From a virus, in the IMG/VR virus record IMGVR_UViG_3300005098_000017, positions 64,001 to 128,000 of that record: a stretch of 64,000 bases of DNA; one strand, given 5' to 3'. Below the pieces are notes generated by a model. It saw only the letters and a list, made by a program, of their open reading frames with translations, did not search any database and had not been told where the DNA came from. Positions 1 to 64,000 of this stretch are shown in pieces. A program made the position numbers and the translations under genes. Within the stretch, counting starts at the first letter, position 1. Every line of letters begins with the position of its first letter.

Positions 1-195
1 CTGGAAGTAATCTATTGATACTATTGTATATTCATCTGATTTATATAGCCCTTTGGGCATGGATTCATATATAATAATTCCTGCCACATAAGATGCAAGG
101 CATACGAGCACAACATGTATGATATCTAACCTCACTTTCTTGAATAATAAACGCAAAATAATAACGAGACAAATTGGTAATATAAGCCAAACCAT
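1..195 (-). CDS. Membrane-anchored protein, paralog of 209..679 (runs off the window start)
   Basis: Hand translation MVWLILPICLVIILRLLF...ASYVAGIIIYESMPKGLYKSDEYTIVSIDYFQ; GGAGG RBS upstream; shares W-ILPI, ASY, YES and YKxDEYTIVSI with the next ORF. Confidence 0.8.
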   Translation of the reverse strand, partial: MVWLILPICLVIILRLLFKKVRLDIIHVVLVCLASYVAGIIIYESMPKGLYKSDEYTIVSIDYFQ

Positions 196-208
196 AAGCA
201 GCCTCCTT

Positions 209-679
209 TCACAAGACAAATTGCTTCAACATAGCGCCTTTTGGTACATGTATTATGTAATGGTGAATGGTTGGTTTACCGATAGCAACTAATTTCCACT
301 TAGGAAATCGCGGCTTCATTTTATAAACACACACGCTACCATAATATGTGCTATCTTCTAGAATAATAGATTTGGATGCCGGGACATATACCAATTGAAA
401 TTCATCACCAACCTTTTTATAGGCTACATATACCATCTTCTCCTCGATATGACCTACACCTAAGAAAAACTCTTCCCGCATATGTTGAGATGAGTTGATC
501 GATACGATAGTATACTCATCATCCTTATATACCTCCTTATTCAACGATTCATACGCAAGCATCCCAAAAAGAATGGTCCCCGCATATGACGCTATCATTA
601 CAGGTATGGAAATAATAATACTACGTGTACGCAATAGGGCATATAACATAATCAATATTGGTAATATAAACCAAATCAT
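209..679 (-). CDS. Hypothetical membrane protein (two N-terminal hydrophobic segments)
   Basis: 156-aa ORF, AGGAGG RBS. Confidence 0.75.
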   Translation of the reverse strand: MIWFILPILIMLYALLRTRSIIISIPVMIASYAGTILFGMLAYESLNKEVYKDDEYTIVSINSSQHMREEFFLGVGHIEEKMVYVAYKKVGDEFQLVYVPASKSIILEDSTYYGSVCVYKMKPRFPKWKLVAIGKPTIHHYIIHVPKGAMLKQFVL

Positions 680-688
680 AAGACCTCC

Positions 689-1051
689 TTAGCTTGTCCT
701 TAGATATATCAGGACTGTTACAATATCATCATCAGTAATGCTTCCATAAGCCTGCTTCAACTGGTACTTTAACGTATTATAATCCCTTGCTGCCATATTG
801 TGTTCAATCTCAAGAAGCGGGCGTGGTATATCCTTTAGCTTACCGACCCAATGACCTAATATCCACCCCGTACCGACAAGCTCGTACACAAAGGGAGGCC
901 GGCACCTTCCATAATGATCCTTGTGACACACCCATAATTCAAGCTCTTCACCCAATTCAACCTTAGCCCATCCAGTACCCTTCCTTACTGTCGTAGCAAT
1001 ATGCCCTACAGGTACATCGAATTCATGACACCTGTTTCTCAATCGTCTCAT
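689..1051 (-). CDS. Hypothetical protein, possibly ASCH/PUA-like
   Basis: TTVRKG near the N-terminus and LKQAYG...IVTVL at the C-terminus resemble the ASCH pattern. Confidence 0.45.
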   Translation of the reverse strand: MRRLRNRCHEFDVPVGHIATTVRKGTGWAKVELGEELELWVCHKDHYGRCRPPFVYELVGTGWILGHWVGKLKDIPRPLLEIEHNMAARDYNTLKYQLKQAYGSITDDDIVTVLIYLRTS

Positions 1052-1134
1052 TATGATTCTCCTGAATCTTTTCTAATATATTTATAGAAAACAAATCCTA
1101 ATATAAGCCCCACAACGAACCAAAAGAATCCCAT
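1051..1134 (-). CDS. 27-aa single-TM peptide (MGFFWFVVGLILGFVFYKYIRKDSGES)
   Basis: Hand translation; GGAGG RBS at 1141-1145; fills the gap exactly and its stop overlaps the next start. Confidence 0.6.
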   Translation of the reverse strand: MGFFWFVVGLILGFVFYKYIRKDSGES

Positions 1135-1137
1135 AGC

Positions 1138-1749
1138 TCACCTCCTTGTTTTTATTATTACATCACCTTGAATTTCCAAGTCAAAGAAGCAGTTAGGCGC
1201 GCGCTCCTTGAGAATCTTTAAGATATCAATAAATATCCGCCTTATCTCCCATTGTGCTGAAGCCGCGCCCCTTAGCTCTATCATATGTCTCCATTGGCGG
1301 AAATTAGCAGTCACAACGATCTGCGATGTACATGCATTGGGTAAAACAAATCTCGCATCCTCTTTAGGAATACCTAATGTCAGGAGGACGCTATATAACT
1401 TCTGTAAATATCGCATTATTTCTTCATATAGAAGGCGGGCTTCCTCATTACCTTCTATTGAAGGTGGTACTATATAAGTGAAGCCGGCCTCCTTTACATA
1501 TCTTTGCGATCTTTGTGTATAGGAACATAACCTGTGCCTAACAAGCTGGTGAGTCGCCGCACGGGATATATTCTTAATAAGGAAGGTAGCAGATGCATGC
1601 TCTAATACTGATAGATGACCCCACTTTATAAGCTTACGTATGAGTTCACCAGGTTGACCTTTAGGTTCCGATGCATGTGATACTCTACCAGCCTGCTCAA
1701 TAAGCTCCTCAGCATTGGGAGTTATTGATAATAATGTTATGTCAGCCAA
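1138..1749 (-). CDS. thyX: FAD-dependent thymidylate synthase
   Basis: GHLSVLEH and the ThyX signature HQLVRHRLCSYTQRSQRY; EDARFVLP; AQWEIR. Confidence 0.97.
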   Translation of the reverse strand: MADITLLSITPNAEELIEQAGRVSHASEPKGQPGELIRKLIKWGHLSVLEHASATFLIKNISRAATHQLVRHRLCSYTQRSQRYVKEAGFTYIVPPSIEGNEEARLLYEEIMRYLQKLYSVLLTLGIPKEDARFVLPNACTSQIVVTANFRQWRHMIELRGAASAQWEIRRIFIDILKILKERAPNCFFDLEIQGDVIIKTRR

Positions 1750-1806
1750 CTGCTCCTCCTTTTAATGAATACATTATCATCATCCTCTTGCAATATCTTT
1801 AACTAA

Positions 1807-2148
1807 TTATCCATTATGATCCTTTTCCTTTAATTTATTAACTATATTTTCCAAGTTTTTAAATTTATTAATATAATAACCCATAATTTCTATTGCCGTA
1901 TCAATATCAATGGGAATGTCAAAAGCAACAGCCATAATTTCTTGATCATCATAATTCAATTCACAAGATATTGTTAACACCCCTTCATCAAATTCTAAAT
2001 CAAAATCCCCTACTGCCCCCTCAAATGCTAATGGATCTTTCTCTTTTATAAATTCATCATCATAAATCTGTCTTGCTTTTCGTCTTGCTTCTTCTACATA
2101 AGATTCAAACCTCTTATTAAATACATCTATGAATGCCGATAGACTCAT
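1807..2148 (-). CDS. Acidic hypothetical protein
   Basis: 113-aa ORF in the overlapping gene string. Confidence 0.7.
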   Translation of the reverse strand: MSLSAFIDVFNKRFESYVEEARRKARQIYDDEFIKEKDPLAFEGAVGDFDLEFDEGVLTISCELNYDDQEIMAVAFDIPIDIDTAIEIMGYYINKFKNLENIVNKLKEKDHNG

Positions 2149-2351
2149 AATCCCTCCTTTTTTATTTTTGGAACATACATTACCTCTCCATTACTAACTA
2201 TCTTATGTGCAGGCATGCAATTTCTACAATCAGCACCACATGGCATCAGATCATCAACACCACATCCGCAACCCTCATCCGGTGAACATAATCCATCATA
2301 ACCATGATTGACTAACCATTCCTTTACAATCTCCTCTACTGTTTTATCCAC
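2145..2351 (-). CDS. Small Cys-rich hypothetical protein
   Basis: GYDGLC...CGC..DDLMPC...C..C. Confidence 0.7.
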   Translation of the reverse strand: MDKTVEEIVKEWLVNHGYDGLCSPDEGCGCGVDDLMPCGADCRNCMPAHKIVSNGEVMYVPKIKKEGL

Positions 2352-2363
2352 AATTCCTCCTTG

Positions 2364-2576
2364 TCAAGATTCTAACAATTCCTCATCAAATATTTTTATT
2401 AACCGCTGCCTGCAGTCATTCCAGCCACTAAAATAAGCCTGCAATTCTCTCTCTGATTCTGATGGAATGTTTTCTTGCCGTAATCTTGCAAGCACAAAAT
2501 TTTTAATGTCTTTAACCAACTCCTTCACAAACCTCTCATAGATAATTCTCTCATAATAATCATTGGATAATAACAT
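2364..2576 (-). CDS. Hypothetical protein (start probably ATG 2576 after AGGAGG)
   Basis: ORF track 2364..2609; RBS at 2581-2587; contains YFSGWNDCR. Confidence 0.65.
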   Translation of the reverse strand: MLLSNDYYERIIYERFVKELVKDIKNFVLARLRQENIPSESERELQAYFSGWNDCRQRLIKIFDEELLES

Positions 2577-2641
2577 ATCCACCTCCTTTTTTCCCACTAT
2601 AATATGCATAGAAGCCTAAATGTCAAGGTATAATTTCAAAG

Positions 2642-3331
2642 ATGAAACGAATACAACACATACTGTTATTAATAATAGTATTAATAATTATCGCTATAGG
2701 ACATCCCTTCCGTCCATTTTATGTCTTCTTCCAAGAGGGCTATAATGACACAGCATATGTGGACACTACAGATGCATGCATCCCTTGTTCAACATCATAT
2801 AATGTAACGATCTGCACAACAGCTGTCATATCATCGCTACCTATTGACACAACAGACGATACACTATGGCATGGTTACTTATTAAAGCTGTGGATAAAAG
2901 ACACCTCAGGATACACAAGCGATACATTTTATGTGAATGATACATGCTTCAGAACATTGTATCAAGTAGTACCTTGCAATATAGCACCTACATGTTCACT
3001 GGTATGGGGATACCATTTCTGGGTCATAAATCTAGATTGCATCAATATACAATATGGCATCTATGTAGGCGATGGTGATAGCGTATGTGTTTACATCGGG
3101 AAAGATATGCAACATGGACAAAAATGCGTAGCGATAAATAGTAGCACACCAGTACATCAACTAAGAGTGATAGCCGGAGATACAACACCCGTTTACATAA
3201 GTGAATTCCCTGTCATCCCATATCCAGCTTATTCGGATACGTACTGGTATGACATACGTGGAAGAAGAACACTACCGTATAGAAGTGGCGTTTATCTACA
3301 TAGAAGACGGGTTATCGTAATAATAAAATAA
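2642..3331 (+). CDS. Secreted Cys-rich protein with a T9SS/Por-type C-terminal sorting-like tail (paralog A)
   Basis: Signal peptide MKRIQHILLLIIVLIIIAIG; C-terminus WYDIRGRR...SGVYLHRRRVIVIIK. Confidence 0.75.
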   Translation: MKRIQHILLLIIVLIIIAIGHPFRPFYVFFQEGYNDTAYVDTTDACIPCSTSYNVTICTTAVISSLPIDTTDDTLWHGYLLKLWIKDTSGYTSDTFYVNDTCFRTLYQVVPCNIAPTCSLVWGYHFWVINLDCINIQYGIYVGDGDSVCVYIGKDMQHGQKCVAINSSTPVHQLRVIAGDTTPVYISEFPVIPYPAYSDTYWYDIRGRRTLPYRSGVYLHRRRVIVIIK

Positions 3332-4033
3332 TCATTTGAGGTGCACCTTCACCTTACCATCTTCTATATAAACAGTAGGTGGGGTCCCTCGAAGCCGGCG
3401 TCCTCTAAGATCAAATCGCCCTTTTAGGTAGGGAAGCCGCGGCTTCTTCTTATCATCCTCTATAATAAGACTACTTGTATCGGGCAGAACAATCCTCATA
3501 ATTTGATAAAGTGATAGATTATCATATGCAATGCACTTGCGTCCCCAAATGCTGCCTTTCGTTATATAGACACATAATGAATCACCACTTGCTAAACTAG
3601 GATATGCACTTCTGCCTATATCAATGATCCAAAGGTGATAACCCCAAACAGTACTGCATGTTGGAGCAAGATGATCTATGCAAGGCTGCACCCTCCACAA
3701 AGGTATAGATGCTGATGGACATGAATGTATGTCACAGCTATCCCAAATGGTATCCGCAGAACTATCATAGATAAAAAACTTGAGAGAGAACCCATACCAT
3801 ACATCATCAGTACTATCCGTATCAGTACCCATTGACGATATTACTTGTAGTGTACATAGATTGCGGTTGAAAGAAGCCGCGCACTTTGAACAGATGCCCA
3901 TCGTATCAACATAAGCTGTATCATTATATCCCAACTGGAATAGAACAAAGAACCACCGAGGTGGCGGAGGTGGGTCGGCAGCAACCAATGATATCCCGAT
4001 CGCTAATAGTATAATAATACTAATCTTCTTCAT
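3332..4033 (-). CDS. Secreted Cys-rich protein with a T9SS/Por-type C-terminal sorting-like tail (paralog B)
   Basis: Signal peptide ending LVAA; shares GYNDTAYVDT, APTCSxVWGYHxW and GDSxCVYI with paralog A; C-terminus RFDLRGRR...VYIEDGKVKVHLK. Confidence 0.75.
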   Translation of the reverse strand: MKKISIIILLAIGISLVAADPPPPPRWFFVLFQLGYNDTAYVDTMGICSKCAASFNRNLCTLQVISSMGTDTDSTDDVWYGFSLKFFIYDSSADTIWDSCDIHSCPSASIPLWRVQPCIDHLAPTCSTVWGYHLWIIDIGRSAYPSLASGDSLCVYITKGSIWGRKCIAYDNLSLYQIMRIVLPDTSSLIIEDDKKKPRLPYLKGRFDLRGRRLRGTPPTVYIEDGKVKVHLK

Positions 4034-4223
4034 CTTTATCTTTTTTAGATGGCATAAGCAATTTAGCTATAAGTACAATCACACCTACAATTACAACACC
4101 AATTATGCCAAATGTCCCTATCAGCGCCAATGCATCCATCTCGGGACCTGTGAATGGATCCTGAGCAAAAGCGACGTTAAAGATACCAAGTGCCCATAAT
4201 ATGTAATATAGTCTCGCCATCAT
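4020..4223 (-). CDS. Small membrane protein (signal peptide plus one TM helix)
   Basis: AFA cleavage motif, hydrophobic core IGTFGIIGVVIVGVIVLIA, charged tail. Confidence 0.7.
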   Translation of the reverse strand: MMARLYYILWALGIFNVAFAQDPFTGPEMDALALIGTFGIIGVVIVGVIVLIAKLLMPSKKDKDEED

Positions 4224-4248
4224 TCAATAATACCTTAATCAAAATTCA

Positions 4249-4276
4249 TTGAAGATTCCCAGAAATACGGTATAAT
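4249..4276 (+). promoter_or_regulatory. Sigma70-like promoter for the glycosyltransferase
   Basis: TTGAAG-16 bp-TATAAT, followed by an AGGAG RBS. Confidence 0.55.
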
Positions 4277-4299
4277 CAGACCAAAAGAAAGGAGCGTGT

Positions 4300-6204
4300 A
4301 TGATTATAAAGGTCCCACTCAGGCAAGACACAAAAACTGTTTCACAGAAAGGTTACCCTGTCATAGCGGTAATATCTGGTAATACACATTTTTATTCCGG
4401 TGGGAGATATTATATGTACGAGGTAGCTGTTGCATTATCTGAATTAGGAGCCGAAGTGCATTTCATTACGAATGTGCGTCCAAGGCATTTTGAAAAGGAT
4501 TTCAAAGATTATGATATCAGTAAAATTCATTGGCATGTTGATAGAAATTATAAAGCCGATCTACCTCCCTTAGATGCTGTTATCGGCTCCCCTCTTCATA
4601 CAGCTCTCATAGCCGTTGATCTTGCGGGCTTACATTCATGCCCTTCAATTATCATTGTCTTTGAAACACCTAACTGGTATGCAAAATATGAAGAGGATGA
4701 ACATAAATATATGCCACGAAAACCACCATTTGAGATGTTCAAGCAAGCCTTAATAGAGTGTGATCGTATTATAGCAATTAGCCACGAAGGTGCCAAACAT
4801 ATCCCCCAATGGGATAGCAGGATTCCACCAGATAAAATTAGTGTTATAAGACCCGTTGTAAATCATAAATGCGCTGATAAATATAAAAATAAATCCGCAA
4901 GAGAACGTAGTGTTACATACGTGGGTAGATTGGTGTTTAATAAACAATTTTGGGAGCTCTATGATGTTATAATGAATGATCCCGAACCATATGTATTTCA
5001 TGTTGTTACATCAACGATATCAGAAGCCGAGCGCAAAGCACACATGGGAAATGAGAAACACCCCGTCCAGTGGCATCTTAAGGTTGGTGATGACAAAAAA
5101 TTCGAAATATTATCAAAAACATCAGCCTTAATTTTACCAACCAAGTTCGAGGGTTATGGTATGCCTCCACAGGAATCATTATATCTGAATACACATACTA
5201 TTGTTACGGATCTACCTGTTTTCCGTAATGAGCATGCAATAAAGGATGATGCACACTTTGTTAAGGACATGAAAGAAATTCCAAGTGTAGTTCACAAGGT
5301 ACTTGGTAAGACATGTACACCTAAGGGACACATACCAACGATGGAGGATATGAAAAGAGAGCTTCTGCAGGTTAAGGAGATACCATTTAAGTGGCGCTCC
5401 GAAGACGATATCCTCATAAGCTTTTCATGTTGCGTCTTTAATAATGCTAAACATATAAGAGAGTGTATTGAATCAATTTATGATCATGCATATGAGATAA
5501 TCATTGTTGAAGGAGCTACCGATTGGTGGGCTAACTACTTTAAGAGTCCTACAGGTATCAGCACTGATGGAACACATGAAATAATTATGGATCTTATAAA
5601 AAATGATAGCAAGGGGGTTATAAAATATTATGGTCCCCTGCGTTTCCCTCATAAGGTACAGATGAGGCGTTATGCGGTAAATAAAATTGATAAAGAAGCT
5701 GTGAGAAGCGGGCGCCTCGTCTATTGGATCGTGGATGCTGATGAAATCTATACTGATGAAAGCATTAAAGCAATGAAACGCGCCATCCTAACGCATCAAA
5801 GAGGCATTGTTTTTCAACCAACATACAGACATCACTGGATTGATCCACGGTATGTCATAGAAGGCGGGCCATGGAGCGCGCCTCATACAAGAGTCGTCGT
5901 GTGGAATAGGAAATATGGTTACCATAAGCGTGATCAATATTATATACAGAGACATAACGAACCATTGGATGAGCAGGGCATAGGGCTTAATATAATGAGG
6001 CCAAAGTATTATGTAAGCCGCGGCTTAGGTGTATTAGTCCCTGACTGCATCGTTGACCACTATGCATATGATTATAACCTAGAAGCCAAAATGCAATTCT
6101 ATAAGGAACGTGGCGATAATGCATACAAATTAATGGTTGCTGTTATGCAATGGAAGCCTGGCAAACCATTACCAAAAGGTATTACGATTAAGCGCATAAA
6201 TTAA
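4300..6204 (+). CDS. Two-domain glycosyltransferase (N-terminal GT-B/GT4 plus C-terminal GT-A/GT2)
   Basis: SGG near the N-terminus, YVGRL, PTKFEGYGMPPQES (GT4 E-x7-E); then CVFNN...EIIIVEG...STDGT...WIVDADE (GT2 DxD). Confidence 0.9.
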   Translation: MIIKVPLRQDTKTVSQKGYPVIAVISGNTHFYSGGRYYMYEVAVALSELGAEVHFITNVRPRHFEKDFKDYDISKIHWHVDRNYKADLPPLDAVIGSPLHTALIAVDLAGLHSCPSIIIVFETPNWYAKYEEDEHKYMPRKPPFEMFKQALIECDRIIAISHEGAKHIPQWDSRIPPDKISVIRPVVNHKCADKYKNKSARERSVTYVGRLVFNKQFWELYDVIMNDPEPYVFHVVTSTISEAERKAHMGNEKHPVQWHLKVGDDKKFEILSKTSALILPTKFEGYGMPPQESLYLNTHTIVTDLPVFRNEHAIKDDAHFVKDMKEIPSVVHKVLGKTCTPKGHIPTMEDMKRELLQVKEIPFKWRSEDDILISFSCCVFNNAKHIRECIESIYDHAYEIIIVEGATDWWANYFKSPTGISTDGTHEIIMDLIKNDSKGVIKYYGPLRFPHKVQMRRYAVNKIDKEAVRSGRLVYWIVDADEIYTDESIKAMKRAILTHQRGIVFQPTYRHHWIDPRYVIEGGPWSAPHTRVVVWNRKYGYHKRDQYYIQRHNEPLDEQGIGLNIMRPKYYVSRGLGVLVPDCIVDHYAYDYNLEAKMQFYKERGDNAYKLMVAVMQWKPGKPLPKGITIKRIN

Positions 6205-6599
6205 ACATGCCGTTCAAAATGGGGTACATCCTTGAATGTCTTAAAGTTGCCGCCCCATCTGTTCTTCTTATCAAGACTCTCCCAGTACTCACCAAACGGT
6301 TTAATATCATTATAGTCCCATGTTAAAGTGTAATATTTCCCATCAACAACAATAATCGTCTGCTCATACTTATACTTTTCACCCTCCTGTATTGGCTTAA
6401 AGAAATTAAGGTCAATAGCGAGCCGCTTCAAATGATATGAATTCATTGTCTTACTGCGCCCCGTTTCCACATATATCCGTTGCGTTTCAGGAGAGCGCCA
6501 GAGTTCTCCCCCCGTAACAACCCAGCCTCTTTCTTCGACATACTTAATCAGTTTCGCTACATCCTTCAGAAACTCCCACTGTTCCTTCACTAATGACAT
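6201..6599 (-). CDS. M15-family peptidase (L-Ala-D-Glu peptidase-like endolysin)
   Basis: R-S..Q, SYHLKRLAIDL, WGG and DVPHFE zinc-binding motifs. Confidence 0.9.
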   Translation of the reverse strand: MSLVKEQWEFLKDVAKLIKYVEERGWVVTGGELWRSPETQRIYVETGRSKTMNSYHLKRLAIDLNFFKPIQEGEKYKYEQTIIVVDGKYYTLTWDYNDIKPFGEYWESLDKKNRWGGNFKTFKDVPHFERHV

Positions 6600-6876
6600 C
6601 TTCCTGAACCTCCTCTTCTTTTGGTTTCTCCTTTGACCCTTGGAAAATAAGACGATGCCCTTCTTCCTTGCTTATTAATGCAATGGTACCTCCAAAGTCA
6701 ATCTTACCAATATAATTTTCATCCTCATATTCAATATAGATCCATCCAGTGTGCTGCCCACTCGCATCTACAATTTTACCATCCTCTTCGATATAGAATG
6801 CTGGATCACCACGTTGTGTAATAAGACACGCCTTATAGTTACCATAATCATAATAAAATTTGTGAAAAAATAGCAT
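6544..6876 (-). CDS. Hypothetical protein
   Basis: 110-aa ORF with AGGAGG RBS. Confidence 0.65.
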   Translation of the reverse strand: MLFFHKFYYDYGNYKACLITQRGDPAFYIEEDGKIVDASGQHTGWIYIEYEDENYIGKIDFGGTIALISKEEGHRLIFQGSKEKPKEEEVQEDVISEGTVGVSEGCSETD

Positions 6877-6887
6877 CTAACACCTCC

Positions 6888-9000: not shown

Positions 9001-9015
9001 CTTAAACCCCCTTTA

Positions 9016-12095: not shown

Positions 12096-12133
12096 CTCCT
12101 TTTGTCATACATTATAATTATTTACTATATGTT

Positions 12134-12556: not shown

Positions 12557-12559
12557 CTC

Positions 12560-14251: not shown

Positions 14252-14272
14252 CCTCTATCTTGTTTTTGTATG

Positions 14273-14300
14273 ATTATAATCATAATGTACATGGAGTCAA
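14273..14300 (-). promoter_or_regulatory. Leftward sigma70-like promoter
   Basis: Minus strand TTGACT (14300-14295)-16 bp-TATAAT (14278-14273). Confidence 0.65.
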
Positions 14301-14311
14301 GAAAAAAATTG

Positions 14312-14341
14312 TTGACAAGATTTATCTGATGAATATATAGT
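14312..14341 (+). promoter_or_regulatory. Rightward sigma70-like promoter (divergent pair with the previous one)
   Basis: TTGACA 14312-14317, TATAGT 14336-14341, AGGAGG RBS downstream. Confidence 0.65.
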
Positions 14342-57700: not shown

Positions 57701-58775
57701 TACATCGATGGCTGGTAAAGCTGATGTGATAAGAACAGGGTATGCATTAGCATTGCAGCATATATATAAATTAAGAGCTGAAGGGCTTTCATATCAGGAT
57801 ATAAGTAAGATCATGGGATTAAGCATTCCAGAAGCATTTGGTCAAGTATTTGATAAATGGATGGCGGCGGGTTCTGAAAGACAGAAGATGATTCTCACAT
57901 TTGAAAGGGAAATACTCGATAAGGTATTAAAGATGAAGCGTGGTGGTTCTCCAGAGGCGATGGCTGAAGCAATAAATAATCTTGCTAATGAGTTGCTGGA
58001 GTATAGTAAGGTTTCATCATCTGTTGCGAAGAAAGGACATGAGTTAATAGATAAATTTGTTGCAGAAATTGATTGGGAGAAGATGGGATTGAAGCCGCGT
58101 GATGCTTTATACATGATGGGGTGGTTATTAAGAAACACGCAATGGACTATCCGTAATTCCAGTTATCTTGTTACGAGACAATCGATAAATAGAGGTCTTA
58201 TTGAAGCATATGCGATGTTTGCATCCCGTTTGCTGAGTCAACCGACGGGTCCTACGGTAAGCCCGACATTGTTAGATGCATTGTCGGGTGAGGTATTAAG
58301 GGGCATGGCAAAGGAGCCGAAGCCATTGAATGAATTACTTGGCGAGCAAACAGCAAATATGAGGTTTAGGGAGGCATTGGCGGGCTTCCTTACAAAAACA
58401 TTTGAGAATTTATCTAAATCAAGAAAACATAGATTGCTATTAGCAGGTGCATTGGCTGGGATAGCGGGATATATATTAAGCGGGCCGAAATTAAGAGGAG
58501 ATATATTTTCATTTGGTATCGATATAGGCACAGTGCATGGATTGGAGCCGAGCTTCTTTGATGGTAGATGGACATACCCTGAGTTGCCCCGAGGGGAGGA
58601 TATAAGGGGTTTGGAGAATCCATATCATAAAAGGAAAATTTATATTCTACGTAATATAAGGCGCAGGAACCCTGCATTATTTAATGAGTTAAGGAGGCGC
58701 GGTATAATTCAAGAGTGGGAAATGTCGGCGCCTTATGATTACCCACGCAGAGAAAGGAAGGTGATCTATGTATGA
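51714..58775 (+). CDS. Giant protein (2353 aa): putative single-chain two-barrel RNA polymerase with an N-terminal DEDD exonuclease-like domain
   Basis: Colinear GEGHMFIHRRL, KWVTYYQKG, GRMP and MDP...LGDWDTDRL motifs; exonuclease-like MDAEW/GKN/HFGEQD. Confidence 0.65.
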   Translation: MAVIRKKHTYLRTFTRRKEREKGNRFAKFGLGVAALVPIVYLVRGRGFERLHDFLKTFAEASYKKEARASEASLWAYGPLDRIKKAFMDNPFLSVLGNVTKKEAQGRSVREVLNKLKDIVELLREYYSVAEIRKLFNEDIIPYADKASKLIVEEEKQLVYKYQLMFERALKILTRKINEKGWLPRDPFHFRLLSKYLPHSYKFGLFYGTMPSFSAPLFEISTASGQFAQIFQREVKNLSESEVLLGQHVEQVIKDYVKKHVVVNPEWELAASEVFKHLSAEEHLQVRNLVTRITEQVAKWLHRHAGIDATDLPDVHVVIKAQRYYDVPMLVAQLSVVDLRGVKRSIEIKLGVPQKSGLMAAIGNYPTANVRFAQGNRVRSIFSLKLERLGEMFEHALNDLYEGKSEDYVTRRIHRIIGRYDLYGTGRNDKAFQLVHSIVDKDFKDYAAYNAKKRFLKRAAELVLGVRKGKYRVFMDAEWVMAGISSTGTQYAVTESRRRLIWSFAIQVFDDLGNEVDKLVVFIDPKTISDEFFMSQVRRFGLSKAAAEEALKAVRGRVAMPAGYVRVDSEMEASRLICKKIKDIINKYGKDDLLVMGKNFWSSEVALLERAFKADSNILNYIKRKLVDIEDIYRLVYGAKAINRSLSVEAILDYVKVSDEGSKLLGRLLNYEPRVEVQAFANLVRSLHFGEQDNRIAYILSKIAESMVNNDPELRERVLRIYDIVAKSQGAVLSFTTQQEFMQRAYNYVKEQLKSVGVGSPNAARKWRFEYPFNPADWVPLFVPTLEKQRYQLGRGLPLSEASKRLLETLKKEYARRVLGLGEADINYLGPALISMPFKRFLEQQMLYNVRSVFTIPVFSTFFPFAGEGHMFIHRRLTELSTVVQEVISQKIPISRLENMDARMQLWAKLFESAMEAVKTSPKLGELIKSKFNNDIVKFLRAVDLSIVIGRYRGWIKDSERLANVLAQLFPGFPIKRFVGHAIGRNLRGLTIKQYMALRRGVRAPKINLGDIWKEIFSDKAAAHPLYDMLSNDNMLKLGLMDESAQAGYAQCALIREIFNRLVESGLHLTNPEQYIKYGTFVMTDRLQLGDKVVKIGYNGKLVFNKVITSYDLTGIPSLDFSLTYEIVLPTPLKWVTYYQKGMGTAQRWSLSQFPYYLIEPARFMERGELGIFIETEMTRLKEALIKKYGVREAANVMSKMTKDLNDYMNRVVNYAIKEHGLPIKLTSPLFIFNPKMMAIEGNYDLFNTLTTEQKGLLWTVFLEGLPEKVGKIGGYPSLFDYLEAKFKEHGIVVTPQERRIFRRYVQKQYALYKNKKISEKEFFETVLLKDIADERIRNWFSRLYYGDDREQLARLFDIYQIKLGKRVVELIGLGRHSPFGLGDTALTSTYKSFVRIPMQMYWDIHRWPHLEGMAQFIDAFQAQNLPIYETLLKMADMLKMSQSSIDELVKAGGIYAVPVRRFFDFVRKHMNLLRSIREDIYVPEKILEEAHGDMVRAVQMMLDLGVSLTDFKENAIKFEGAQVRAQVAKEVQDFLRQIFEEAQGKRVVIDVGRAMSVSYKNLESMIGQNDAIIRDLIKYLERMGYNKLKYIPLGTREFWDLSFHQIGRDQVIVEPQVKKLLQLMASIASIKGKVQATGVPSAQVKFEERNVFYKQFVNYLGSIASSFIGRQSLWARTAVTHLPGVEGVGLPSFLLFNKSRLLDTVVWEPFTTYVDASVIENLRGMLEAAGFSKEFIDAFYKGSPNVAFLGMPGRMPFHPGMGLIGFIKSLTKQQKKHVSSVSDAVKIYMDPLLITKVLLGDWDTDRLMALLTMTSPKGAEDITRIWKWVYGLSDQDVAFLMSYGKFRAGDRKAIGELQTFFTSVFEKMTKEQKEAYIQSKEFEDMLHKRLSAIVARMKEGYLSWFGKSEAEELSERVEFLVTGDVTKIPTTEGKVIYLPTILAQMRGYTMKIEKMWPFIQEAKEIARKEGIPFKEALAKHMADVFANRELRNVLGTSMAGKADVIRTGYALALQHIYKLRAEGLSYQDISKIMGLSIPEAFGQVFDKWMAAGSERQKMILTFEREILDKVLKMKRGGSPEAMAEAINNLANELLEYSKVSSSVAKKGHELIDKFVAEIDWEKMGLKPRDALYMMGWLLRNTQWTIRNSSYLVTRQSINRGLIEAYAMFASRLLSQPTGPTVSPTLLDALSGEVLRGMAKEPKPLNELLGEQTANMRFREALAGFLTKTFENLSKSRKHRLLLAGALAGIAGYILSGPKLRGDIFSFGIDIGTVHGLEPSFFDGRWTYPELPRGEDIRGLENPYHKRKIYILRNIRRRNPALFNELRRRGIIQEWEMSAPYDYPRRERKVIYV

Positions 58776-58939
58776 AAATTATAGTTAGAGTATCACCAAA
58801 TGCAGATATTGTTCGTGTTGAAGCGGCAATACGTAATGCTTTGATGGCGTATGATTTAGATGTACGGTCGATACAAGTGGTAACAACAGCTTTCGGACAG
58901 GAGGAGTATGCCAGAGGACCCGAAAAAACCGAGGCTTGA
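58772..58939 (+). CDS. 55-aa hypothetical protein
   Basis: Hand translation MKIIVRVSPNADIVRVEAAIRNAL...; ATGA overlap with the upstream stop. Confidence 0.6.
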   Translation: MKIIVRVSPNADIVRVEAAIRNALMAYDLDVRSIQVVTTAFGQEEYARGPEKTEA

Positions 58940-61900
58940 TTACAGGACAGCTATTATAGGTACTGTTCCTGTGATTGTTACAGATTTTAGAGTTGTTGAG
59001 AATTTTTCCTACCAGCAGATACAGACGCTACGTATGGATAATAATGTTATTTACCAGATACCCGGAAGGAATTTGTATGTTATTATTGGATTAGAATTTC
59101 CTGATGGTTATTCCATTAATACAGGACTGCGTGAGCTCCATGCCATGATGTTTCTTGCTTCCATTGTACCTATTTATAGTCCGTGGCTTAATGACATGGT
59201 TATTGCATCGTTTGATCAATATAGAGGGCTTGCTGAATTAATGGGTGTTAATACAGATGTAAACATTTATGCATTGCGTCGTTTAACGATGAGATCTGTT
59301 GAGTCGCCTTATGCTATTGGTGTTGAGATGGAGATTGCTCCCATGGATTTAGATGCGGCGCGGCTTAAACCCCAATTCCTTGTGGATGAAGAGGCAGCGC
59401 GGGCTAAATCTGAATTTATAGCGAGGTTGTTTGAGTTATATGAAACGATGAAGAGAAGTGAGGACCCGCTGGCTTATTTGGATGGCTTTACATCTATCTA
59501 CAATGATTACAAGAGGGCTGTTGCTAATAAGGTTGTCGACTTCCTATGGCAGTCAGAATTATTTAAAAGGTGGATAAGCATAATATATCCTGAGGGTGAT
59601 AAGTCACTTTTACCAGTTCAAGGGGTGCGGCTTAAACGGCAGCTTGGTATATGGAGACAAACGCCATTTGCTAATATTGTTATTCATTATCTTCATATGG
59701 CTGATGATATCGTATCGTTGCGAGATGAAATCCATAAGTATGTTTCAGATGTGGCTAGTAGTACAGCGAAAATGATCCGTGATTATGTAGCTGATTACGA
59801 ACAAATTCAGCAGGTTGGCGCGCCTCGACGATTTTTTCAAGTATTACAGACATTATATAATAGCATTAAAGGTGGCATACGCACCCGTGTTGATAGTTCA
59901 TTAATGGGTACTATAGCATTTGGCAATCAGATAAGAGAGATGTTACTTGAGGTTGCATTACGTATGGATAATGGGCAGAGAGGTAAGTTTACTAACTATG
60001 TGCAAAGGATTCTATCTCTGACGGCGGGGCCTAATCTAGTAGTCCCTGAGATGATGATGGAAGGTGAATCAGCTATTGTTACAATGTCTGATTTTCTTAC
60101 TAGATTTTTTGCGGAATTAGGTAAGAAGTTGGATACGGATTCATACAAAATTTTTGTTGATTTATTTGCTGATGTTATGTCTGAACGTATTGCGTATTGG
60201 GAGTTGTTTTCAAAGGTGATGAAATATGAGACATTTGATTTTGGTAAGTATCGTGCTACTCCAACCAGATGGGAATACACTGTGACTAATAAATTTGTAC
60301 CTCTGAGGATTGGTGATGCAGTAGCTCCCTTGTTGCAACATCTTGGTACTGACAGTCCTATATTTAGGGTGCAGTATGCATGTGGTGATGGTCTGGCCAT
60401 AAGGCAGCTAAAACAGTTAAGAGATGATGTTGATAAGGCTGTGCAACAGATAAATGAAATAGGGTCATATTTCCCTTGGATTACGAGATATATAGAGCCT
60501 ATAATATTATCCTCAACGGACGGCTTAATTGAATTTCTGGGCATGCAGCATGCGGTTTTAGATTCAGTAAGTATTAATCCGATGGAAGAAGCCGCGATGG
60601 TTGCTGAGGCTACATGTACATTTGTTGCCTCTGATATAACGATTTTTGATTACGAGCAGTTTGAGTTTGCCGATACTGTTGGTGCCAATAATTTATCATG
60701 TCTATTATTATTCTATGCATTGCGTAAATGGTACCAGGAAATTTTTGGCAAAGACCTTCCTCCGAGTGGTACTGTTGCAGAGACGGTGCAGCCATTAAAG
60801 GAAGGTGAAGATATTTCGAAGCTAAGGATTCCGTTTAAATTGTTTGATGTTATGGATTCACAGAATGTAACGAAGCGTGCATTTCAGTATGCGATGACAT
60901 TATCCAAAGCTGAGAATCAGAATTATTATAACTTCACTATCTATAATTCAGATAAAAAGGCTGTATATGCATTAAATGAGGGTGTGGTTACTAACGTAAC
61001 TAATAATCTGGTTGATGGTTATATAGTTCGTGTGAAAAACGGTGATTTTGTAACGGAGTATAGGAATCTGGGGAAATTGGCAGAGGATATTAAGCCGGGC
61101 GAAAAGGTGTTGGGTGGACAATATTTAGGGGAGGCGCGCTTCTTTGCTAGTGGAACATATCCAACCGAAGTACAGGAAAAAGAAGTTAAAATGCTACCTA
61201 ACCTATTAGGATTAGGGGTGCCTGAGGTTGTTCAAGAATACAAGAAGAAAGTAAAAACATCTGGTCCTGCGCCTTATGGGGTGTTTATATTATTTATGTA
61301 TAAAAATATTCCATTGGACCTAGAAATTTATAAAGGTAAGGAGGTTTTTGAAAAAGCAGCTAATATATCTGCGCCCACAGATATATATGCATATTTTTGG
61401 ACCCATACTAAGGATGATAAAATAACATGGGCTGGGCATACCTATGATGTGAAAAATAATCCTTATGTCCAAGGATATGTAAATAGTGTCTTAGGTGGGA
61501 TACCTATTTTAGAATCAATTTCGAATCGTGTTTTTGATGAGAAGACATTTTTTGATGTCCTTATTCGATTACTGATGGAGAAATGTATGACATGTGTATC
61601 GTCATTTGATATTGCTGGCTTGGAGCAGAAACTTGCAAATGAATTGGGTATGGAGCCGGCTTCTGCAACTGATAAAGCTGTTCCAACACAGGAGGAATAT
61701 GTGCCCGTTCTTGGCCGTCCATACTTTACCCACCCATCATTGGAAGAGATGAAACTACCAGAGCCACAATTACCTCCTAAGGTAACTCCGGCACCAGAGG
61801 AAGGAAAAATGGAAGTACCTGAGGAGAAAGTAGAGAAACCGCAGCTTTCTGCACCAAAAGAATTACCTGAGGAGGCCCCGCCAGTAGAGGTGCCGCCTAG

Positions 61901-64000
61901 TGAACCACCAATGATAGAAGAAGGTGAAAAAGAGGAGGGTGATCTTTTAAATAGACTCATAGCACGTTACATGGCGCTTGTATCGCAAGATATGAAATAT
62001 TTACAGCAGTTACCACCTACCCCTATAGTTGATATGGAAGCGGTGCCTACTGATGATGAACTTATACATAGGAGAAATAGTGGTTTATGGGAGCATTTAA
62101 AGCAGCATTACACAGAGTTTGTAAAATTGGAAGCTGTATTGTCACAGAAATTTGGTGATGAATTCTTTAAGGATTTTGATGAACGGGTAAAAGCTGAGCG
62201 TGAGGAATTACGGAAACTAGAAGGTGGTGGATTATACCGTTGGGTTGTTGCAGATCGTTACCGTGAAATAATTAATGATGAATATGTGACATATGGTATA
62301 CCGTGGCAAAGTTTGAAGGATCAGGCACCCTTTGATGAATTGTTGCCATTGATAAAACAGAGACATGCTGTTGTTGTCAGTCTTATGAGGAATTTATTTG
62401 AACTGGGGAAAAATTCTTCTGAACGTGATTTCTGGGCCGTGGCTTCTTCAAGATTTGAAAATAGGCTGTCCTTCTTTAACAATGGTCTTGATCAGATTGC
62501 TGCTGAATACGGTGATAATTCAATGGAGATAATTGAATTTTATGATAATGCTTTGGTGAAGGAGCAGGATTATTTATCAGCTCTCGAAGAGGCTTATGAG
62601 AGTCAGTTGGTTAGAGAGGAAAAGAAAGAATCTATAGAGAAAAAGGATATGCCATCCAGTACTATACCACCAGCTGGTACTCCAAATCGTCTGCCTGAGT
62701 TAGAAGCAAAATATAAGGAGATCATAGGATATGAACGAGATCTATTGGAAGCGGCACAGGATTTAAAAGATCCTTATTGGAAGAATGCATTGGAGGAGTT
62801 TAACAAGCGTGTGGCTAATTATGAGAGGGATATTGAGGAGGCCGCGGGCCCAGATTTAGAAAAAATTTATGAGAATGCTATAGCTTATGAGACAATGATG
62901 CTTGATAATTATAAGACCAAATATCAGAAGCAGAGGGCTATTGGAGATTATACGAAGCCGCCAATGCCCCAGCATGTGGCGCCGGTGACGGTTCCGAGGG
63001 CTAAACCAGTAAAACCACCTACGGAAATTGTTATTCCACCAGATGAGGTAGAGATGTGGCGTGAACTGTTAGATTTTATGGCTGATAGCTATATTAGGGG
63101 TAATTTGTTTAAAGATGTTGATTTGGTAAGTAAGATAGATGCAAATGATATAGATGGGTCATTTAATGCTATTTTATCACAGATAGCATCTTCTCATATG
63201 GAATTAGATAGTGTAGATGCTGTTGCTGTGCATATAACAGCTAGTGGTCCAGCAAGTGATAATTTTATTGGAGGTTGGGAAAGATTAGCTAGAAGTTTTG
63301 ATTTACAGGGTGGTGTTGAGAAAGCTCGACGTAAGCATAAAGGAGCATATAGTATTTATCATATATTAATTGGTAATGGTTTTATAAAACATTATCGTGA
63401 TAAAATTCGGGGATTTGATTCTAAATATGATGGTTTGATTATGGTATGCCGTCCATTGACACAGATGGCGAATCATATTGGGGGATTGAATCGTCAATCT
63501 ATTAGTGTTGCATGGGTTGGTATGCCATTTATGCAAGTTCTTAGGAATAGTCGTGCATGTAAATATCCTATACAGACAGCTACTCCATTTCCTCATATAG
63601 GTTTTTGGGAATATGTGATCGAGCCGGCATATCAGTCGTTGCTAAGAGAGCATAAGCCGCCGACTTATACTGCTTTAAGACAGAGGGCATTTGAAATATT
63701 GGATGATAATGGTTGGATAGAGCCTCCTGATAAAAGTATAAATAGTCAGGTTGTGGCATTTACAAATGAGTTTTACGATAAAGTGCCGGCTTATGACTTT
63801 ACTCATTATATAGCGAATGGTGGGGTTATAACATGGCCGAGTTGGGGAGATTTGCTACAGGGTGGTAAGATGAAAATAGATGCACATGCAATACCGGGGA
63901 TAGGAGAGCGTAAGAGTGGTATATGTGTAAGCAAGATAGGGGGTAAATTTGCTCTTAAATATATTTATGGTATGAGTCCGCGTGCTTGGGATAGATTAGT
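58908..64000 (+). CDS. Giant virion protein (>1690 aa, runs off the window end) with degenerate M23 domain, Pro/Glu linker and Amidase_2-like domain
   Basis: ATG after GGAGGAG; same frame read at 60.9 kb (AVYALNEGVV...IKPGEKVLGGQYLG) and 63.2 kb (VAVHITA...YHILIG...DG...RP...HIGGLNRQSISV); absent from the track, consistent with no stop before the end. Confidence 0.8.
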   Translation, partial: MPEDPKKPRLDYRTAIIGTVPVIVTDFRVVENFSYQQIQTLRMDNNVIYQIPGRNLYVIIGLEFPDGYSINTGLRELHAMMFLASIVPIYSPWLNDMVIASFDQYRGLAELMGVNTDVNIYALRRLTMRSVESPYAIGVEMEIAPMDLDAARLKPQFLVDEEAARAKSEFIARLFELYETMKRSEDPLAYLDGFTSIYNDYKRAVANKVVDFLWQSELFKRWISIIYPEGDKSLLPVQGVRLKRQLGIWRQTPFANIVIHYLHMADDIVSLRDEIHKYVSDVASSTAKMIRDYVADYEQIQQVGAPRRFFQVLQTLYNSIKGGIRTRVDSSLMGTIAFGNQIREMLLEVALRMDNGQRGKFTNYVQRILSLTAGPNLVVPEMMMEGESAIVTMSDFLTRFFAELGKKLDTDSYKIFVDLFADVMSERIAYWELFSKVMKYETFDFGKYRATPTRWEYTVTNKFVPLRIGDAVAPLLQHLGTDSPIFRVQYACGDGLAIRQLKQLRDDVDKAVQQINEIGSYFPWITRYIEPIILSSTDGLIEFLGMQHAVLDSVSINPMEEAAMVAEATCTFVASDITIFDYEQFEFADTVGANNLSCLLLFYALRKWYQEIFGKDLPPSGTVAETVQPLKEGEDISKLRIPFKLFDVMDSQNVTKRAFQYAMTLSKAENQNYYNFTIYNSDKKAVYALNEGVVTNVTNNLVDGYIVRVKNGDFVTEYRNLGKLAEDIKPGEKVLGGQYLGEARFFASGTYPTEVQEKEVKMLPNLLGLGVPEVVQEYKKKVKTSGPAPYGVFILFMYKNIPLDLEIYKGKEVFEKAANISAPTDIYAYFWTHTKDDKITWAGHTYDVKNNPYVQGYVNSVLGGIPILESISNRVFDEKTFFDVLIRLLMEKCMTCVSSFDIAGLEQKLANELGMEPASATDKAVPTQEEYVPVLGRPYFTHPSLEEMKLPEPQLPPKVTPAPEEGKMEVPEEKVEKPQLSAPKELPEEAPPVEVPPSEPPMIEEGEKEEGDLLNRLIARYMALVSQDMKYLQQLPPTPIVDMEAVPTDDELIHRRNSGLWEHLKQHYTEFVKLEAVLSQKFGDEFFKDFDERVKAEREELRKLEGGGLYRWVVADRYREIINDEYVTYGIPWQSLKDQAPFDELLPLIKQRHAVVVSLMRNLFELGKNSSERDFWAVASSRFENRLSFFNNGLDQIAAEYGDNSMEIIEFYDNALVKEQDYLSALEEAYESQLVREEKKESIEKKDMPSSTIPPAGTPNRLPELEAKYKEIIGYERDLLEAAQDLKDPYWKNALEEFNKRVANYERDIEEAAGPDLEKIYENAIAYETMMLDNYKTKYQKQRAIGDYTKPPMPQHVAPVTVPRAKPVKPPTEIVIPPDEVEMWRELLDFMADSYIRGNLFKDVDLVSKIDANDIDGSFNAILSQIASSHMELDSVDAVAVHITASGPASDNFIGGWERLARSFDLQGGVEKARRKHKGAYSIYHILIGNGFIKHYRDKIRGFDSKYDGLIMVCRPLTQMANHIGGLNRQSISVAWVGMPFMQVLRNSRACKYPIQTATPFPHIGFWEYVIEPAYQSLLREHKPPTYTALRQRAFEILDDNGWIEPPDKSINSQVVAFTNEFYDKVPAYDFTHYIANGGVITWPSWGDLLQGGKMKIDAHAIPGIGERKSGICVSKIGGKFALKYIYGMSPRAWDRL

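What the first reader, a model, noticed from the sequence alone, without database searches (positions are those of the whole stretch)
1..64000. Genome-wide GC-run motif (AAG-S(n) / S(n)-CTT) written into coding sequence in all three frames
Seen: in this AT-rich genome many G/C runs are capped by (G/T)AAG on the 5' side and/or CTT(C/A) on the 3' side. Full palindromes: GAAGCCGCGGCTTC (3433, 11633, 14122) and TAAGCCGCGGCTTA (6014). Variable cores: 7033, 10759, 15370, 23634, 43173, 48127, 56895. Half-sites occur at roughly three per kb by eye. The motif encodes KPRL/RRL/GGL, PAS/AAS and RGF/PGF/AGF in different frames, so selection is on the DNA and not the protein. Half-sites look polarised (AAGCC on + in the left arm, GGCTT on + in the right arm). 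Inference: binding sites for a genome-organising or ejection protein, hairpin signals for the putative virion RNAP, modification or nick sites, or a HIP1/Chi-like host signal.
Basis: seen in the sequence. Interest (0 to 1): 0.8.

Follow-up and report, generated by a model that had tools for sequence, protein, structure and literature searches.

The report
Polar GC-run/GGCTT motif in vent phage
A hydrothermal-vent phage and its closest kin carry hundreds of copies of a short strand-oriented DNA signal (a run of 6-11 G/C bases ending in GGCTT) written through their genes in every reading frame, far above chance and conserved at the DNA level; what reads it is still unknown.

Summary
The window is bases 64001-128000 of a 147-kb crAss-like-layout phage contig from hydrothermal-vent metagenomes. 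G/C runs of 6 or more ending in CTT occur 243 times on coding strands, against 45±6 after synonymous-codon shuffling; the reverse complement occurs 167 times against 50. Long G/C runs without such a flank are exactly at expectation (146 vs 147).

The unit is a half-site, S(3-8)GGCTT[C/A]. The two flanks of a run occur independently, so the palindromes are overlapping half-sites, not selected hairpins. Sites are not insertions. They replace aligned residues with R/A/G/P/L. Their positions are not shared with a relative whose portal is 38% identical, although that relative has the same motif. More distant syntenic phages lack it.

In strains 92-97% identical, third-codon G/C bases inside flanked runs change about 3 times less often than elsewhere. 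The core GCTTM is the most constrained part.

Orientation is polar and switches sharply at window ~15.37 kb.

None of 401 sampled Bacteroidota genomes shows this enrichment.

Best guess, at low confidence: a strand-specific signal used in replication, namely a G/C-clamped priming site. Rivals are a Chi-like signal, a protein-binding, nick or modification site, or a biased-repair drive.

Other first-stage notes recorded the same motif in neighbouring windows of this genome.

The parts
1..64000 (.). Field of half-sites S(>=6, ending C)TT and its reverse complement. There are 109 on + and 76 on - in the window, inside genes in all three frames and also in spacers.
1..15369 (-). Left segment. The stringent motif SSSSGGCTTM lies almost only on the minus strand (18, against 6 on +, of which 5 are the second halves of palindromes).
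   Evidence: the same pattern in the near relative G002 and in L126
15370..15384 (.). AAGCCCGCCGGGCTT, the two-sided element at which the motif orientation switches. It lies about 1 kb to the right of the divergent-transcription point (about 14252-14370).
15376..64000 (+). Right segment (terminase, portal, capsid and giant proteins). The stringent motif is 49 on + and 8 on -.
   Evidence: enrichment 7.1x for sense and 3.3x for antisense against the synonymous shuffle
3433..3446 (.). GAAGCCGCGGCTTC, two overlapping half-sites forming a perfect palindrome.
6014..6027 (.). TAAGCCGCGGCTTA, two overlapping half-sites.
11633..11646 (.). GAAGCCGCGGCTTC.
14122..14135 (.). GAAGCCGCGGCTTC, inside the 563-aa gene next to the divergence point.
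7031..7045 (.). TAAGCCCGCGGCTTC, a two-sided element with an imperfect core.
10758..10769 (.). GAAGCCGGCTTA.
23636..23646 (.). AAGCGCGGCTT, inside the terminase gene.
43173..43182 (.). AAGCCGGCTT.
48127..48136 (.). AAGCCGGCTT.
56895..56909 (.). GAAGCCGCCGGCTTC.
12560..14251 (-). 563-aa protein of no known family at the divergence point, conserved in position in the relative (602 aa). A weak language-model lead points to HTH_36/DnaD_N-type initiator-like proteins. It is a possible origin-side factor and is not shown to read the motif.
   Evidence: no family or PDB hit; synteny; weak lead, score 0.91

Best explanation
The motif is a strand-specific cis-signal in the DNA. It has two parts: a sequence-specific core 5'-GGCTT(C/A)-3', and directly 5' of it a stretch where only base-pair strength matters (any G or C; total run 6-11).

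I propose that it is read on the unwound template during replication as a G/C-clamped start site for primer synthesis. A primase-like enzyme would recognise the CTT/GCT triplet and copy towards the run, making a primer that begins (A)AGCC and continues with G/C only. Such a primer would stay annealed in an AT-rich genome at vent temperatures.

Sites are needed mainly on the lagging-strand template, so their orientation follows fork direction and flips at an origin near window 15.4 kb. Sites on the other strand, which are also enriched about 3-fold, would serve restart or forks moving the other way.

Shown: the excess, the half-site anatomy, the DNA-level constraint, the polarity and its sharp switch, and the restriction to one clade. 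Inferred: that replication is the process, and that priming is the act.
For: (1) The pressure is on the DNA. Counts are 5-7x above synonymous and codon-order shuffles, and unflanked G/C runs are exactly at expectation (146 vs 146.9).

(2) In strains 92-97% identical, third-codon G/C bases in flanked runs differ at 5.9%. The rate is 15-22% elsewhere and 16.5% in unflanked long runs. All three codon positions in flanked runs evolve at similar rates. The core positions G, C, T, T, M vary 11 times against 33.5 expected.

(3) The half-site is the unit, so it is read one strand at a time.

(4) Upstream of GGC, G and C are equally frequent. This suggests a requirement for duplex or hybrid stability rather than base-specific contacts.

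(5) Run length falls from 24 at 11 nt to 1 at 12 nt. A primer of A or AA plus at most 11 S is 12-13 nt, near the 10-12 nt, purine-started primers of E. coli cited in PMC2532735.

(6) Polarity: 61:13 in the right arm, 27:6 the other way at 53-79 kb, and a crisp switch at one point that is conserved in three strains. Orientation is heterogeneous within the all-minus-gene left arm (permutation p<1e-4).

(7) The motif type is conserved but its positions are not. The relative with 38% portal identity has sense sites at 12 vs 1.3 expected, at different codons.

(8) Precedent: primases recognise template triplets (T4 GTT, T7 GTC, SP6 GCA, E. coli CTG), and the hyperthermophile Aquifex uses G/C-only triplets, which was interpreted as thermal adaptation (PMC2532735). 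The phage NrS-1, also from vents, has 3-8-nt recognition sites (PMC8718748).

(9) Habitat: hydrothermal-vent metagenomes. The phage encodes PolB, RNase HII, an RNase H/FEN-like protein and a ligase, that is, Okazaki-fragment processing functions.
Against: No primase or replicative helicase was found in the 147-kb contig: Toprim_2, Prim-Pol and DnaB_C searches were negative and family scans found none. The contig is only 84% complete, however.

The direction of replication is unknown. GC and AT skews at four-fold sites do not follow the motif's orientation in the left arm. Explaining all orientation blocks would need two origins.

The antisense excess in the 30.5-40.5 kb block is not significant against a synonymous-shuffle null, although that null is partly circular.

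Spacing is Poisson-like, not regular.

Known primase sites are not reported to be enriched like this. The polarity also mostly coincides with the coding strand, so a transcription-linked process is not excluded.
Confidence: 0.3

Rival explanations
1. The motif is a duplex recognition site for a clade-specific phage enzyme or structural DNA-binding protein, such as a site-specific nickase (T5-like interruptions), a modification enzyme or a condensing/ejection protein. The G/C run would act as a clamp that keeps the duplex closed next to the site.
For: There is a specific 6-nt core plus a run where only strength matters. The constraint is at the DNA level. The motif is confined to one clade and absent in the next syntenic relatives. 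Both orientations are enriched everywhere, at least 3x. The phage encodes a small DNA methyltransferase, an HNH-like protein and a ligase.
Against: A duplex binder does not by itself predict a 5:1 strand polarity with a sharp switch. About 450 nicks would fragment one strand into pieces of roughly 600 nt, far beyond any known nicked phage. No candidate reader was identified.
Confidence: 0.2
2. The motif is a Chi-like polar signal that modulates a RecBCD/AddAB-type nuclease or the phage's own recombination machinery. It would protect linear or broken phage DNA and seed recombination-dependent replication.
For: Strand polarity of about 70-80% with switches resembles Chi and other polar oligomers. 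Chi sites of low-GC bacteria are G/C-rich 5-7-mers; one is recalled from memory as GAAGCGG in S. aureus, and this was not checked here. The phage encodes a RecA/UvsX-like protein.
Against: The G/C run is degenerate, whereas Chi is a fixed word. Density is 10-50x higher than typical Chi. No enrichment was seen in 401 Bacteroidota or 4 other genomes. No other AT-rich viral contig carrying the 14-mer has the motif, apart from fragments of this same lineage.
Confidence: 0.12
3. The motif has no function and is the footprint of a context-dependent biased repair or mutation process. An example would be a very-short-patch-like repair that converts W to S next to ..GGCTT and restores lost sites, acting more on one replication strand.
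For: Differences between strains at sites are mostly single transitions, so the dynamics are gradual. Spacing is random and density is similar in genes and spacers. A drive would also mimic conservation at synonymous sites. The motif overrides protein composition.
Against: No known process writes runs of 6-11 strong pairs with an upper bound next to a specific hexamer. The core is more constrained than the run. Unflanked runs show no sign of any general GC drive. The motif is lineage-specific.
Confidence: 0.15
4. The motif acts at the RNA level or is coupled to transcription. The S-run plus CUU in late mRNAs, or the non-template strand in the transcription bubble, would be read by the phage's unusual RNA polymerases or by an RNase.
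For: In the two largest polar regions the preferred orientation is the sense strand (61:13 and 27:6). In the distant relative only the sense orientation is enriched.
Against: The antisense orientation is enriched about 3x in every segment. Orientation switches about 1 kb away from the transcription switch. The 30.5-40.5 kb block is 1:10 antisense. There is no selected hairpin. Any frame and any G/C sequence is accepted.
Confidence: 0.1
5. The motif is a chance or codon-usage artefact, or an assembly artefact.
For: None remains after testing.
Against: z = 35 against synonymous shuffles. The reversed-pattern control gives 0 against 203. The motif is present in independent assemblies from several metagenomes and studies.
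Confidence: 0.01

Closest known systems
Primase template recognition sites (T4 GTT/GCT, T7 GTC, SP6 GCA, E. coli CTG; Aquifex aeolicus CCC/GCC/CGC; NrS-1 PrimPol GTG and TTTGGTTA)
   Same: These are short template words read on one strand, with synthesis proceeding towards the 5' side of the word. The thermophile precedent shows G/C-only initiation (PMC2532735). The core here contains GCT and CTT triplets, and a primer would start with a purine.
   Different: Known sites are 3-8 nt and are not reported as massively enriched or as carrying a 6-11-nt G/C run. No primase gene was found here. There is no biochemical evidence.
Chi, KOPS and other polar over-represented oligomers ('architecture-imparting sequences') of bacterial chromosomes
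   Same: They are over-represented, tolerated inside genes in any frame, strand-skewed, and switch orientation at defined points.
   Different: Those are fixed 5-8-mers at roughly 0.1-3 per 10 kb and belong to the host chromosome. This motif is a degenerate run plus a hexamer at about 3 per kb. It is confined to one phage clade and was not seen in the sampled bacteria.
HIP1 (cyanobacteria), USS/DUS uptake sequences
   Same: They are hundreds to thousands of copies of a short word written into coding DNA in all frames, sometimes as inverted pairs.
   Different: They are fixed words. HIP1 is itself a palindrome, and uptake sequences are host features. Here the palindromes are by-products of independent half-sites.
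Hairpin promoters of the phage N4 virion RNA polymerase (recalled from memory: 5-7-bp G/C-rich stem, 3-nt loop)
   Same: Some two-sided elements here, for example GAAGC-GCG-GCTTC, look like such hairpins.
   Different: N4 has three such promoters, lying upstream of early genes. Here there are about 450 sites inside genes, and the hairpin is not the selected unit.
Site-specific single-strand interruptions of T5-like and phiKMV-like phages
   Same: They are strand-specific sequence-defined sites in an AT-rich phage genome. T5 nick sites are recalled as G/C-rich.
   Different: Those phages have a handful to about 14 sites per genome, all on one strand. Here there are hundreds with orientation switches. 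The presence of nicks was not tested.
Mobile G/C-rich mini-elements (yeast mitochondrial GC clusters, Rickettsia palindromic elements)
   Same: They are G/C-rich patches inside coding sequences of AT-rich genomes.
   Different: Those are insertions of 30-150 bp. Here the sites occupy aligned codons, with no excess of gaps (6/92 vs 153/4014) and changes one base at a time.

Membership tests
Primase initiation sites | A short template word with a non-copied 3' base, and a primer that starts with a purine | tested here: inconclusive
   The core GGCTT[C/A] contains CTT and GCT. The complement would start A-A-G or G-C-C. This is compatible but not diagnostic.
Primase initiation sites | Preferential location on the lagging-strand template, with a flip at an origin | tested here: inconclusive
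   There is a sharp flip at window ~15.37 kb that is conserved in three strains. Fork direction is unknown, and four-fold-site skews do not corroborate it.
Primase initiation sites | A cognate primase is available | tested here: not met
   There is no Toprim_2, Prim-Pol or DnaB_C match in the contig. The contig is 84% complete, and a host primase remains possible.
Primase initiation sites | Primers map to the sites | not testable with these tools
   This needs mapping of primer or Okazaki-fragment ends.
Chi-like / polar host oligomers | A fixed word of 5-8 nt | tested here: inconclusive
   The GGCTTM hexamer is fixed, but the adjoining 3-8 positions accept any G or C.
Chi-like / polar host oligomers | Strand skew with switches | tested here: met
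Chi-like / polar host oligomers | The same word is enriched and skewed in the host chromosome | tested here: inconclusive
   None of 401 Bacteroidota or 4 other genomes exceeds about 3x over the reversed control. The host is unknown, and other vent phyla were not testable.
Hairpin or cruciform signals (N4-type promoters, terminators, palindromic repeats) | The inverted repeat is the selected unit | tested here: not met
   The flanks are independent (odds ratio 1.17, p=0.38). The stem-length distribution is near the core-shuffle null, with stems >=6 at 14 vs 6.7.
Mobile G/C-rich mini-elements | Present as an insertion relative to homologues | tested here: not met
HIP1 / USS-type genome-wide words | A fixed word shared with, or belonging to, the cellular genome | tested here: not met
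   The run is degenerate. The motif is restricted to a phage clade and was not found in the sampled bacteria.
Nick or modification sites | A physical interruption or a modified base at the motif | not testable with these tools
   Only assembled contigs of older runs are available.

The most novel reading that the evidence does not exclude
One clade of hydrothermal-vent phages has evolved a new class of genome-wide polar cis-element. It is a G/C-clamped start site (or nick site) of defined maximal length, written about three times per kb through its genes at the cost of changing its proteins. It lets an AT-rich genome be primed or processed at high temperature, and its reader is a still unidentified, clade-specific enzyme.
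Probability: 0.25. Interest if true: 0.85.

Novelty: new variant of a known kind. Interest (0 to 1): 0.66.

Why it matters
If the motif is a priming or processing signal, it shows how much a replication requirement can reshape a proteome. At motif codons 73% of residues are R/A/L/G/P, against 40% in the orthologue.

It would also give a sequence-only read-out of fork direction and origins in uncultured phages. And it would point to an unrecognised enzyme in a phage clade where no primase or helicase can be found.

Even if it proves to be a repair drive, it would be a mutational signature of unusual specificity. Practically, the motif is a cheap marker for recognising fragments of this clade in vent metagenomes.

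Tried and rejected
- **Hairpin or palindrome as the unit:** rejected.
- **Insertion or mobile element:** rejected.
- **Codon or dicodon artefact:** rejected.
- **Regular spacing:** not found. The CV is 0.9-1.2, like random placement.
- **Independent skew evidence for fork direction:** four-fold-site GC/AT skews do not track motif orientation in the left arm.
- **Antisense block at 30.5-40.5 kb:** significant against a 50:50 null or by permutation, but not against a synonymous-shuffle null, which is partly circular. Left open.
- **Host search:** TnpB has no close relative in 185,579 species genomes. RNR hits are only about 30% identical and taxonomically scattered. The T9SS-type cargo proteins noted by another reader give no NCBIfam hit. 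The MAG contig L023 that shares a protein with the relative is not held.
- **Relatives in IMG/VR:** only strains >92% identical were found. The phage collection gave no match.
- **Primase and helicase hunt:** negative. The 563-aa protein gave only a weak language-model lead. Its alignment with the orthologue is 21% identical, so no structure was predicted.
- **Expression:** no RNA holder is listed among the sequencing runs. Read laying was not used because only assembled contigs are kept, and these cannot show ends or nicks.
- **Literature:** searches for a described equivalent in crAss-like phages found nothing relevant.
Full report
**Context**

The window is bases 64001-128000 of a 147,433-bp IMG/VR virus contig that CheckV rates 84% complete. 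The contig is 40% G+C and has two divergent gene arms.

The right arm carries a large terminase (848 aa), a portal (806 aa), a capsid protein (494 aa) and giant proteins of 1094-2353 aa. The left arm carries a family-B DNA polymerase, ribonucleotide reductase, a RecA-like protein, RNase HII, an RNase H/FEN-like protein, an ATP-dependent ligase, thymidylate synthase, PhoH, a small DNA methyltransferase and a TnpB.

Sequencing runs that hold the portal gene are mostly labelled hydrothermal-vent metagenomes, with a few labelled sediment, marine sediment or marine, and come from about 21 studies.

Yes. GGCTT is the most over-represented pentamer, and CGGCTT and GGCTTC are the top hexamers, under a maximal-order Markov model. 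G/C-run lengths follow a geometric decay up to 6 and then show a shoulder: 174, 131, 66, 41 and 29 runs of 7-11, against 120, 51, 22, 9 and 4 expected.

Of 450 runs of 7 or more, 141 are preceded by (G/T)AA and 191 are followed by TT(C/A). Short runs show no such flanks.

After shuffling synonymous codons within each gene, which keeps protein sequence and codon usage, runs of 6 or more ending in CTT number 44.6±5.7 against 243 observed. The reverse complement gives 49.8±7.0 against 167. Two-sided elements give 18.7 against 75. Shuffling codon order gives the same picture.

The excess is wholly in flanked runs (runs >=7):

| Flank type | Observed | Expected |
|---|---|---|
| CTT only | 142 | 20.4 |
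| AAG only | 62 | 20.7 |
| Both | 63 | 4.0 |
| Neither | 146 | 146.9 |

**Anatomy**

I aligned 447 half-sites on the run/TT boundary. The result is S S S [C/G] G G C T T [C/A]. At -3 and -2, G dominates (334 and 365 of 447). At +3, C (250) or A (140) dominates. Further upstream G and C are equally frequent, so only 'strong pair' is required there. Run lengths are 6-11 (87, 122, 111, 54, 43, 24) and then drop to 1 at 12.

The AAG flank and the CTT flank of a run occur independently (2x2 table, odds ratio 1.17, p=0.38). Stem lengths of two-sided elements are close to what shuffling their cores gives. The hairpin is not the selected object.

Sites lie in genes and spacers in proportion to their lengths. 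Their spacing is indistinguishable from random, and density is 2-5 per kb in all large genes. Among sense sites the boundary falls in codon positions 1, 2 and 3 in 75, 88 and 40 cases.

**Not insertions, and costly to proteins**

The nearest distant relative found by an exhaustive profile search has a portal 38% identical. It lies on a 111.8-kb ENA scaffold with the same gene order.

In eight orthologous pairs the motif codons sit in aligned columns. Gaps opposite them are not enriched (6 of 92, against 153 of 4014). Identity there is 30%, against 36% elsewhere. At those columns this phage has R/A/L/G/P in 73% of cases, while the relative has them in 40%.

Only one motif position coincides between the two genomes. 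Yet the relative (33% G+C) has the same motif: 12 sense sites against 1.3 expected, with 0 of 500 shuffles reaching 12. Across the 58 kb assembled from its scaffold, 27 of 81 runs of 6 or more end in CTT.

A third lineage, known only from a 3.3-kb contig, shows 6 of 11. Two more distant syntenic phages (portal 28% identical; 37% and 50% G+C) show 1 of 29 and 9 of 157, which is no enrichment.

So the kind of motif is conserved within one clade, while its positions turn over.

**DNA-level constraint**

Seven contigs from other metagenomes are 92-97% identical to this genome over 81.6-104 kb. Differences at sites are mostly single transitions.

Divergence by codon position:

| Class | Position 1 | Position 2 | Position 3 |
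|---|---|---|---|
| G/C bases in flanked runs | 2.5% | 2.7% | 5.9% (14/237) |
| G/C bases in unflanked long runs | 1.1% | 0.4% | 16.5% |
| Isolated G/C bases | – | – | 15.1% |
| G/C bases in short runs | – | – | 22.0% |

In flanked runs the three codon positions evolve at similar rates, whereas unflanked runs behave like ordinary coding sequence.

Per position, matched for codon position and base class, the core G-C-T-T-M varies 11 times against 33.5 expected. The upstream run varies 26 times against 37.6, and the outer flanks 23 against 23.3. These relatives overlap and are not independent, so the p-values are rough. The direction of the effect is clear.

**Polarity**

For the stringent pattern SSSSGGCTTM the genome has 119 on + and 84 on -, and the reversed control has 0.

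In the window, left of 15376 there are 18 on - and 6 on +, five of which are halves of palindromes. Right of it there are 49 on + and 8 on -. The switch falls at the two-sided element at 15370-15384. That is about 1 kb to the right of the point where transcription diverges (14252-14370, where a GroES-like + gene begins). The same switch is seen in a 33.6-kb strain contig, with almost perfect polarity, and in another strain.

Outside the window the left arm is heterogeneous although nearly all its genes are on the minus strand. The 53-79 kb segment is sense-oriented (27:6). The 30.5-40.5 kb segment is antisense (1:10). The rest is mixed. A permutation test for homogeneity within the left arm gives p<1e-4.

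Against a synonymous-shuffle null the antisense block is not significant. That null keeps the amino acids the motif itself imposed, so it is partly circular.

Relative to shuffles the sense orientation is enriched 3-7x and the antisense orientation about 3x in every segment. In the distant relative only the sense orientation is enriched.

**Host signal?**

The stringent pattern occurs at 1.4 per kb in the phage. In 401 Bacteroidota genomes drawn evenly from the phylum, and in 4 genomes of other phyla, it never exceeds about 0.4 per kb. The highest densities are in genomes with equally high reversed-control counts, and the ratio to that control never exceeds about 3.

Among about 100 viral contigs that contain the 14-mer GAAGCCGCGGCTTC, the only AT-rich ones with a high motif density are fragments of this same lineage.

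The host is unknown and other vent phyla could not be sampled. A host-read signal is therefore unlikely but not excluded.

**What it most likely is**

The anatomy is a specific hexamer plus a run where only pair strength counts. It is read per strand, bounded in length, polar, conserved in kind but not in place, and found in an AT-rich genome from a hot habitat.

In my judgement this fits best a start site for primer synthesis whose product must stay annealed. Primases read short template words and copy towards the 5' side (T4 GTT, T7 GTC, SP6 GCA, E. coli CTG). Aquifex primase uses G/C-only triplets, which its authors read as thermal adaptation (PMC2532735). The vent phage NrS-1 PrimPol has recognition sites of 3-8 nt (PMC8718748). 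A primer started opposite the T of GGCTT would read (A)AGCC followed by G/C only and would be at most 12-13 nt long.

Against this reading: no primase or replicative helicase is detectable in the contig, the fork direction is unknown, and four-fold-site skews give no independent support. I hold it at about 0.3.

The rivals are a duplex site for a clade-specific nickase, modifier or binder (0.2), a biased-repair drive (0.15), a Chi-like signal (0.12) and a transcription- or RNA-linked signal (0.1). None is excluded by sequence alone.

**Novelty and verdict**

Polar, over-represented words written through coding DNA are known (Chi, KOPS, uptake sequences, HIP1). Primase words are known too. I found no description of a degenerate G/C run of bounded length fused to a hexamer, at about 3 per kb, 5-7x above codon-preserving expectation and confined to one phage clade.

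I class it as a new variant of a known kind, real and unexplained. It is worth an experiment as soon as an isolate or virion DNA is available.

Noticed in passing
window 25769-27622 (genome 89769-91622): The 617-aa gene between the 463-aa gene and the portal is replaced by unrelated sequence of similar length in all near-identical strains. Alignments break at genome 89843-91469. This is a strain-variable cassette inside the head-morphogenesis block.
   Followed up: no
window 14371-14642 (+): A small ORF reading MIGDHVLLKPRKKEQVGGIYLPE... looks like a GroES-type co-chaperonin. It is the first + gene after the divergence point. A naive longest-ORF call puts a spurious minus-strand ORF over it.
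   Followed up: partly
window 21842-24388 (+): The large terminase is 848 aa, and its two matched stretches (residues 63-203 and 558-679) are far apart. More distant relatives carry an intein with a LAGLIDADG domain in this gene. The insert here was not examined.
   Followed up: no
window 6888-7601 (-), 8065-9000 (-), 9016-11391 (-): Phage-encoded RNase HII, a RecA/UvsX-like protein and a ribonucleotide reductase with a C-terminal Cys-rich tail. RNase HII lies next to the 602-aa orthologue in the distant relative as well.
   Followed up: partly
genome 36-56 kb (outside the window; loci L015/L016): A block of raised G+C (0.42-0.47, against 0.37-0.40) that includes the ligase gene, which has the highest motif density (9.6 per kb). 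Within and next to it the motif orientation is reversed or mixed.
   Followed up: partly
L016:18512-19756 (-) (genome 58512-59756): A TnpB (OrfB_IS605 plus a Cas12f-like TNB domain) with no close relative in 185,579 species genomes.
   Followed up: partly
L023 (NCBI GCA_027077125.1, contig JALTGI010000669.1): A 2.1-kb contig binned into a MAG encodes a protein identical to one of the distant relative phage. It is either a binning artefact or a host clue. The genome is not held, so its taxonomy could not be read.
   Followed up: no
whole contig: No tRNA genes were found in the window. No recognisable primase or replicative helicase was found anywhere in the 147 kb, despite a full set of other replication and nucleotide-metabolism genes.
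   Followed up: partly
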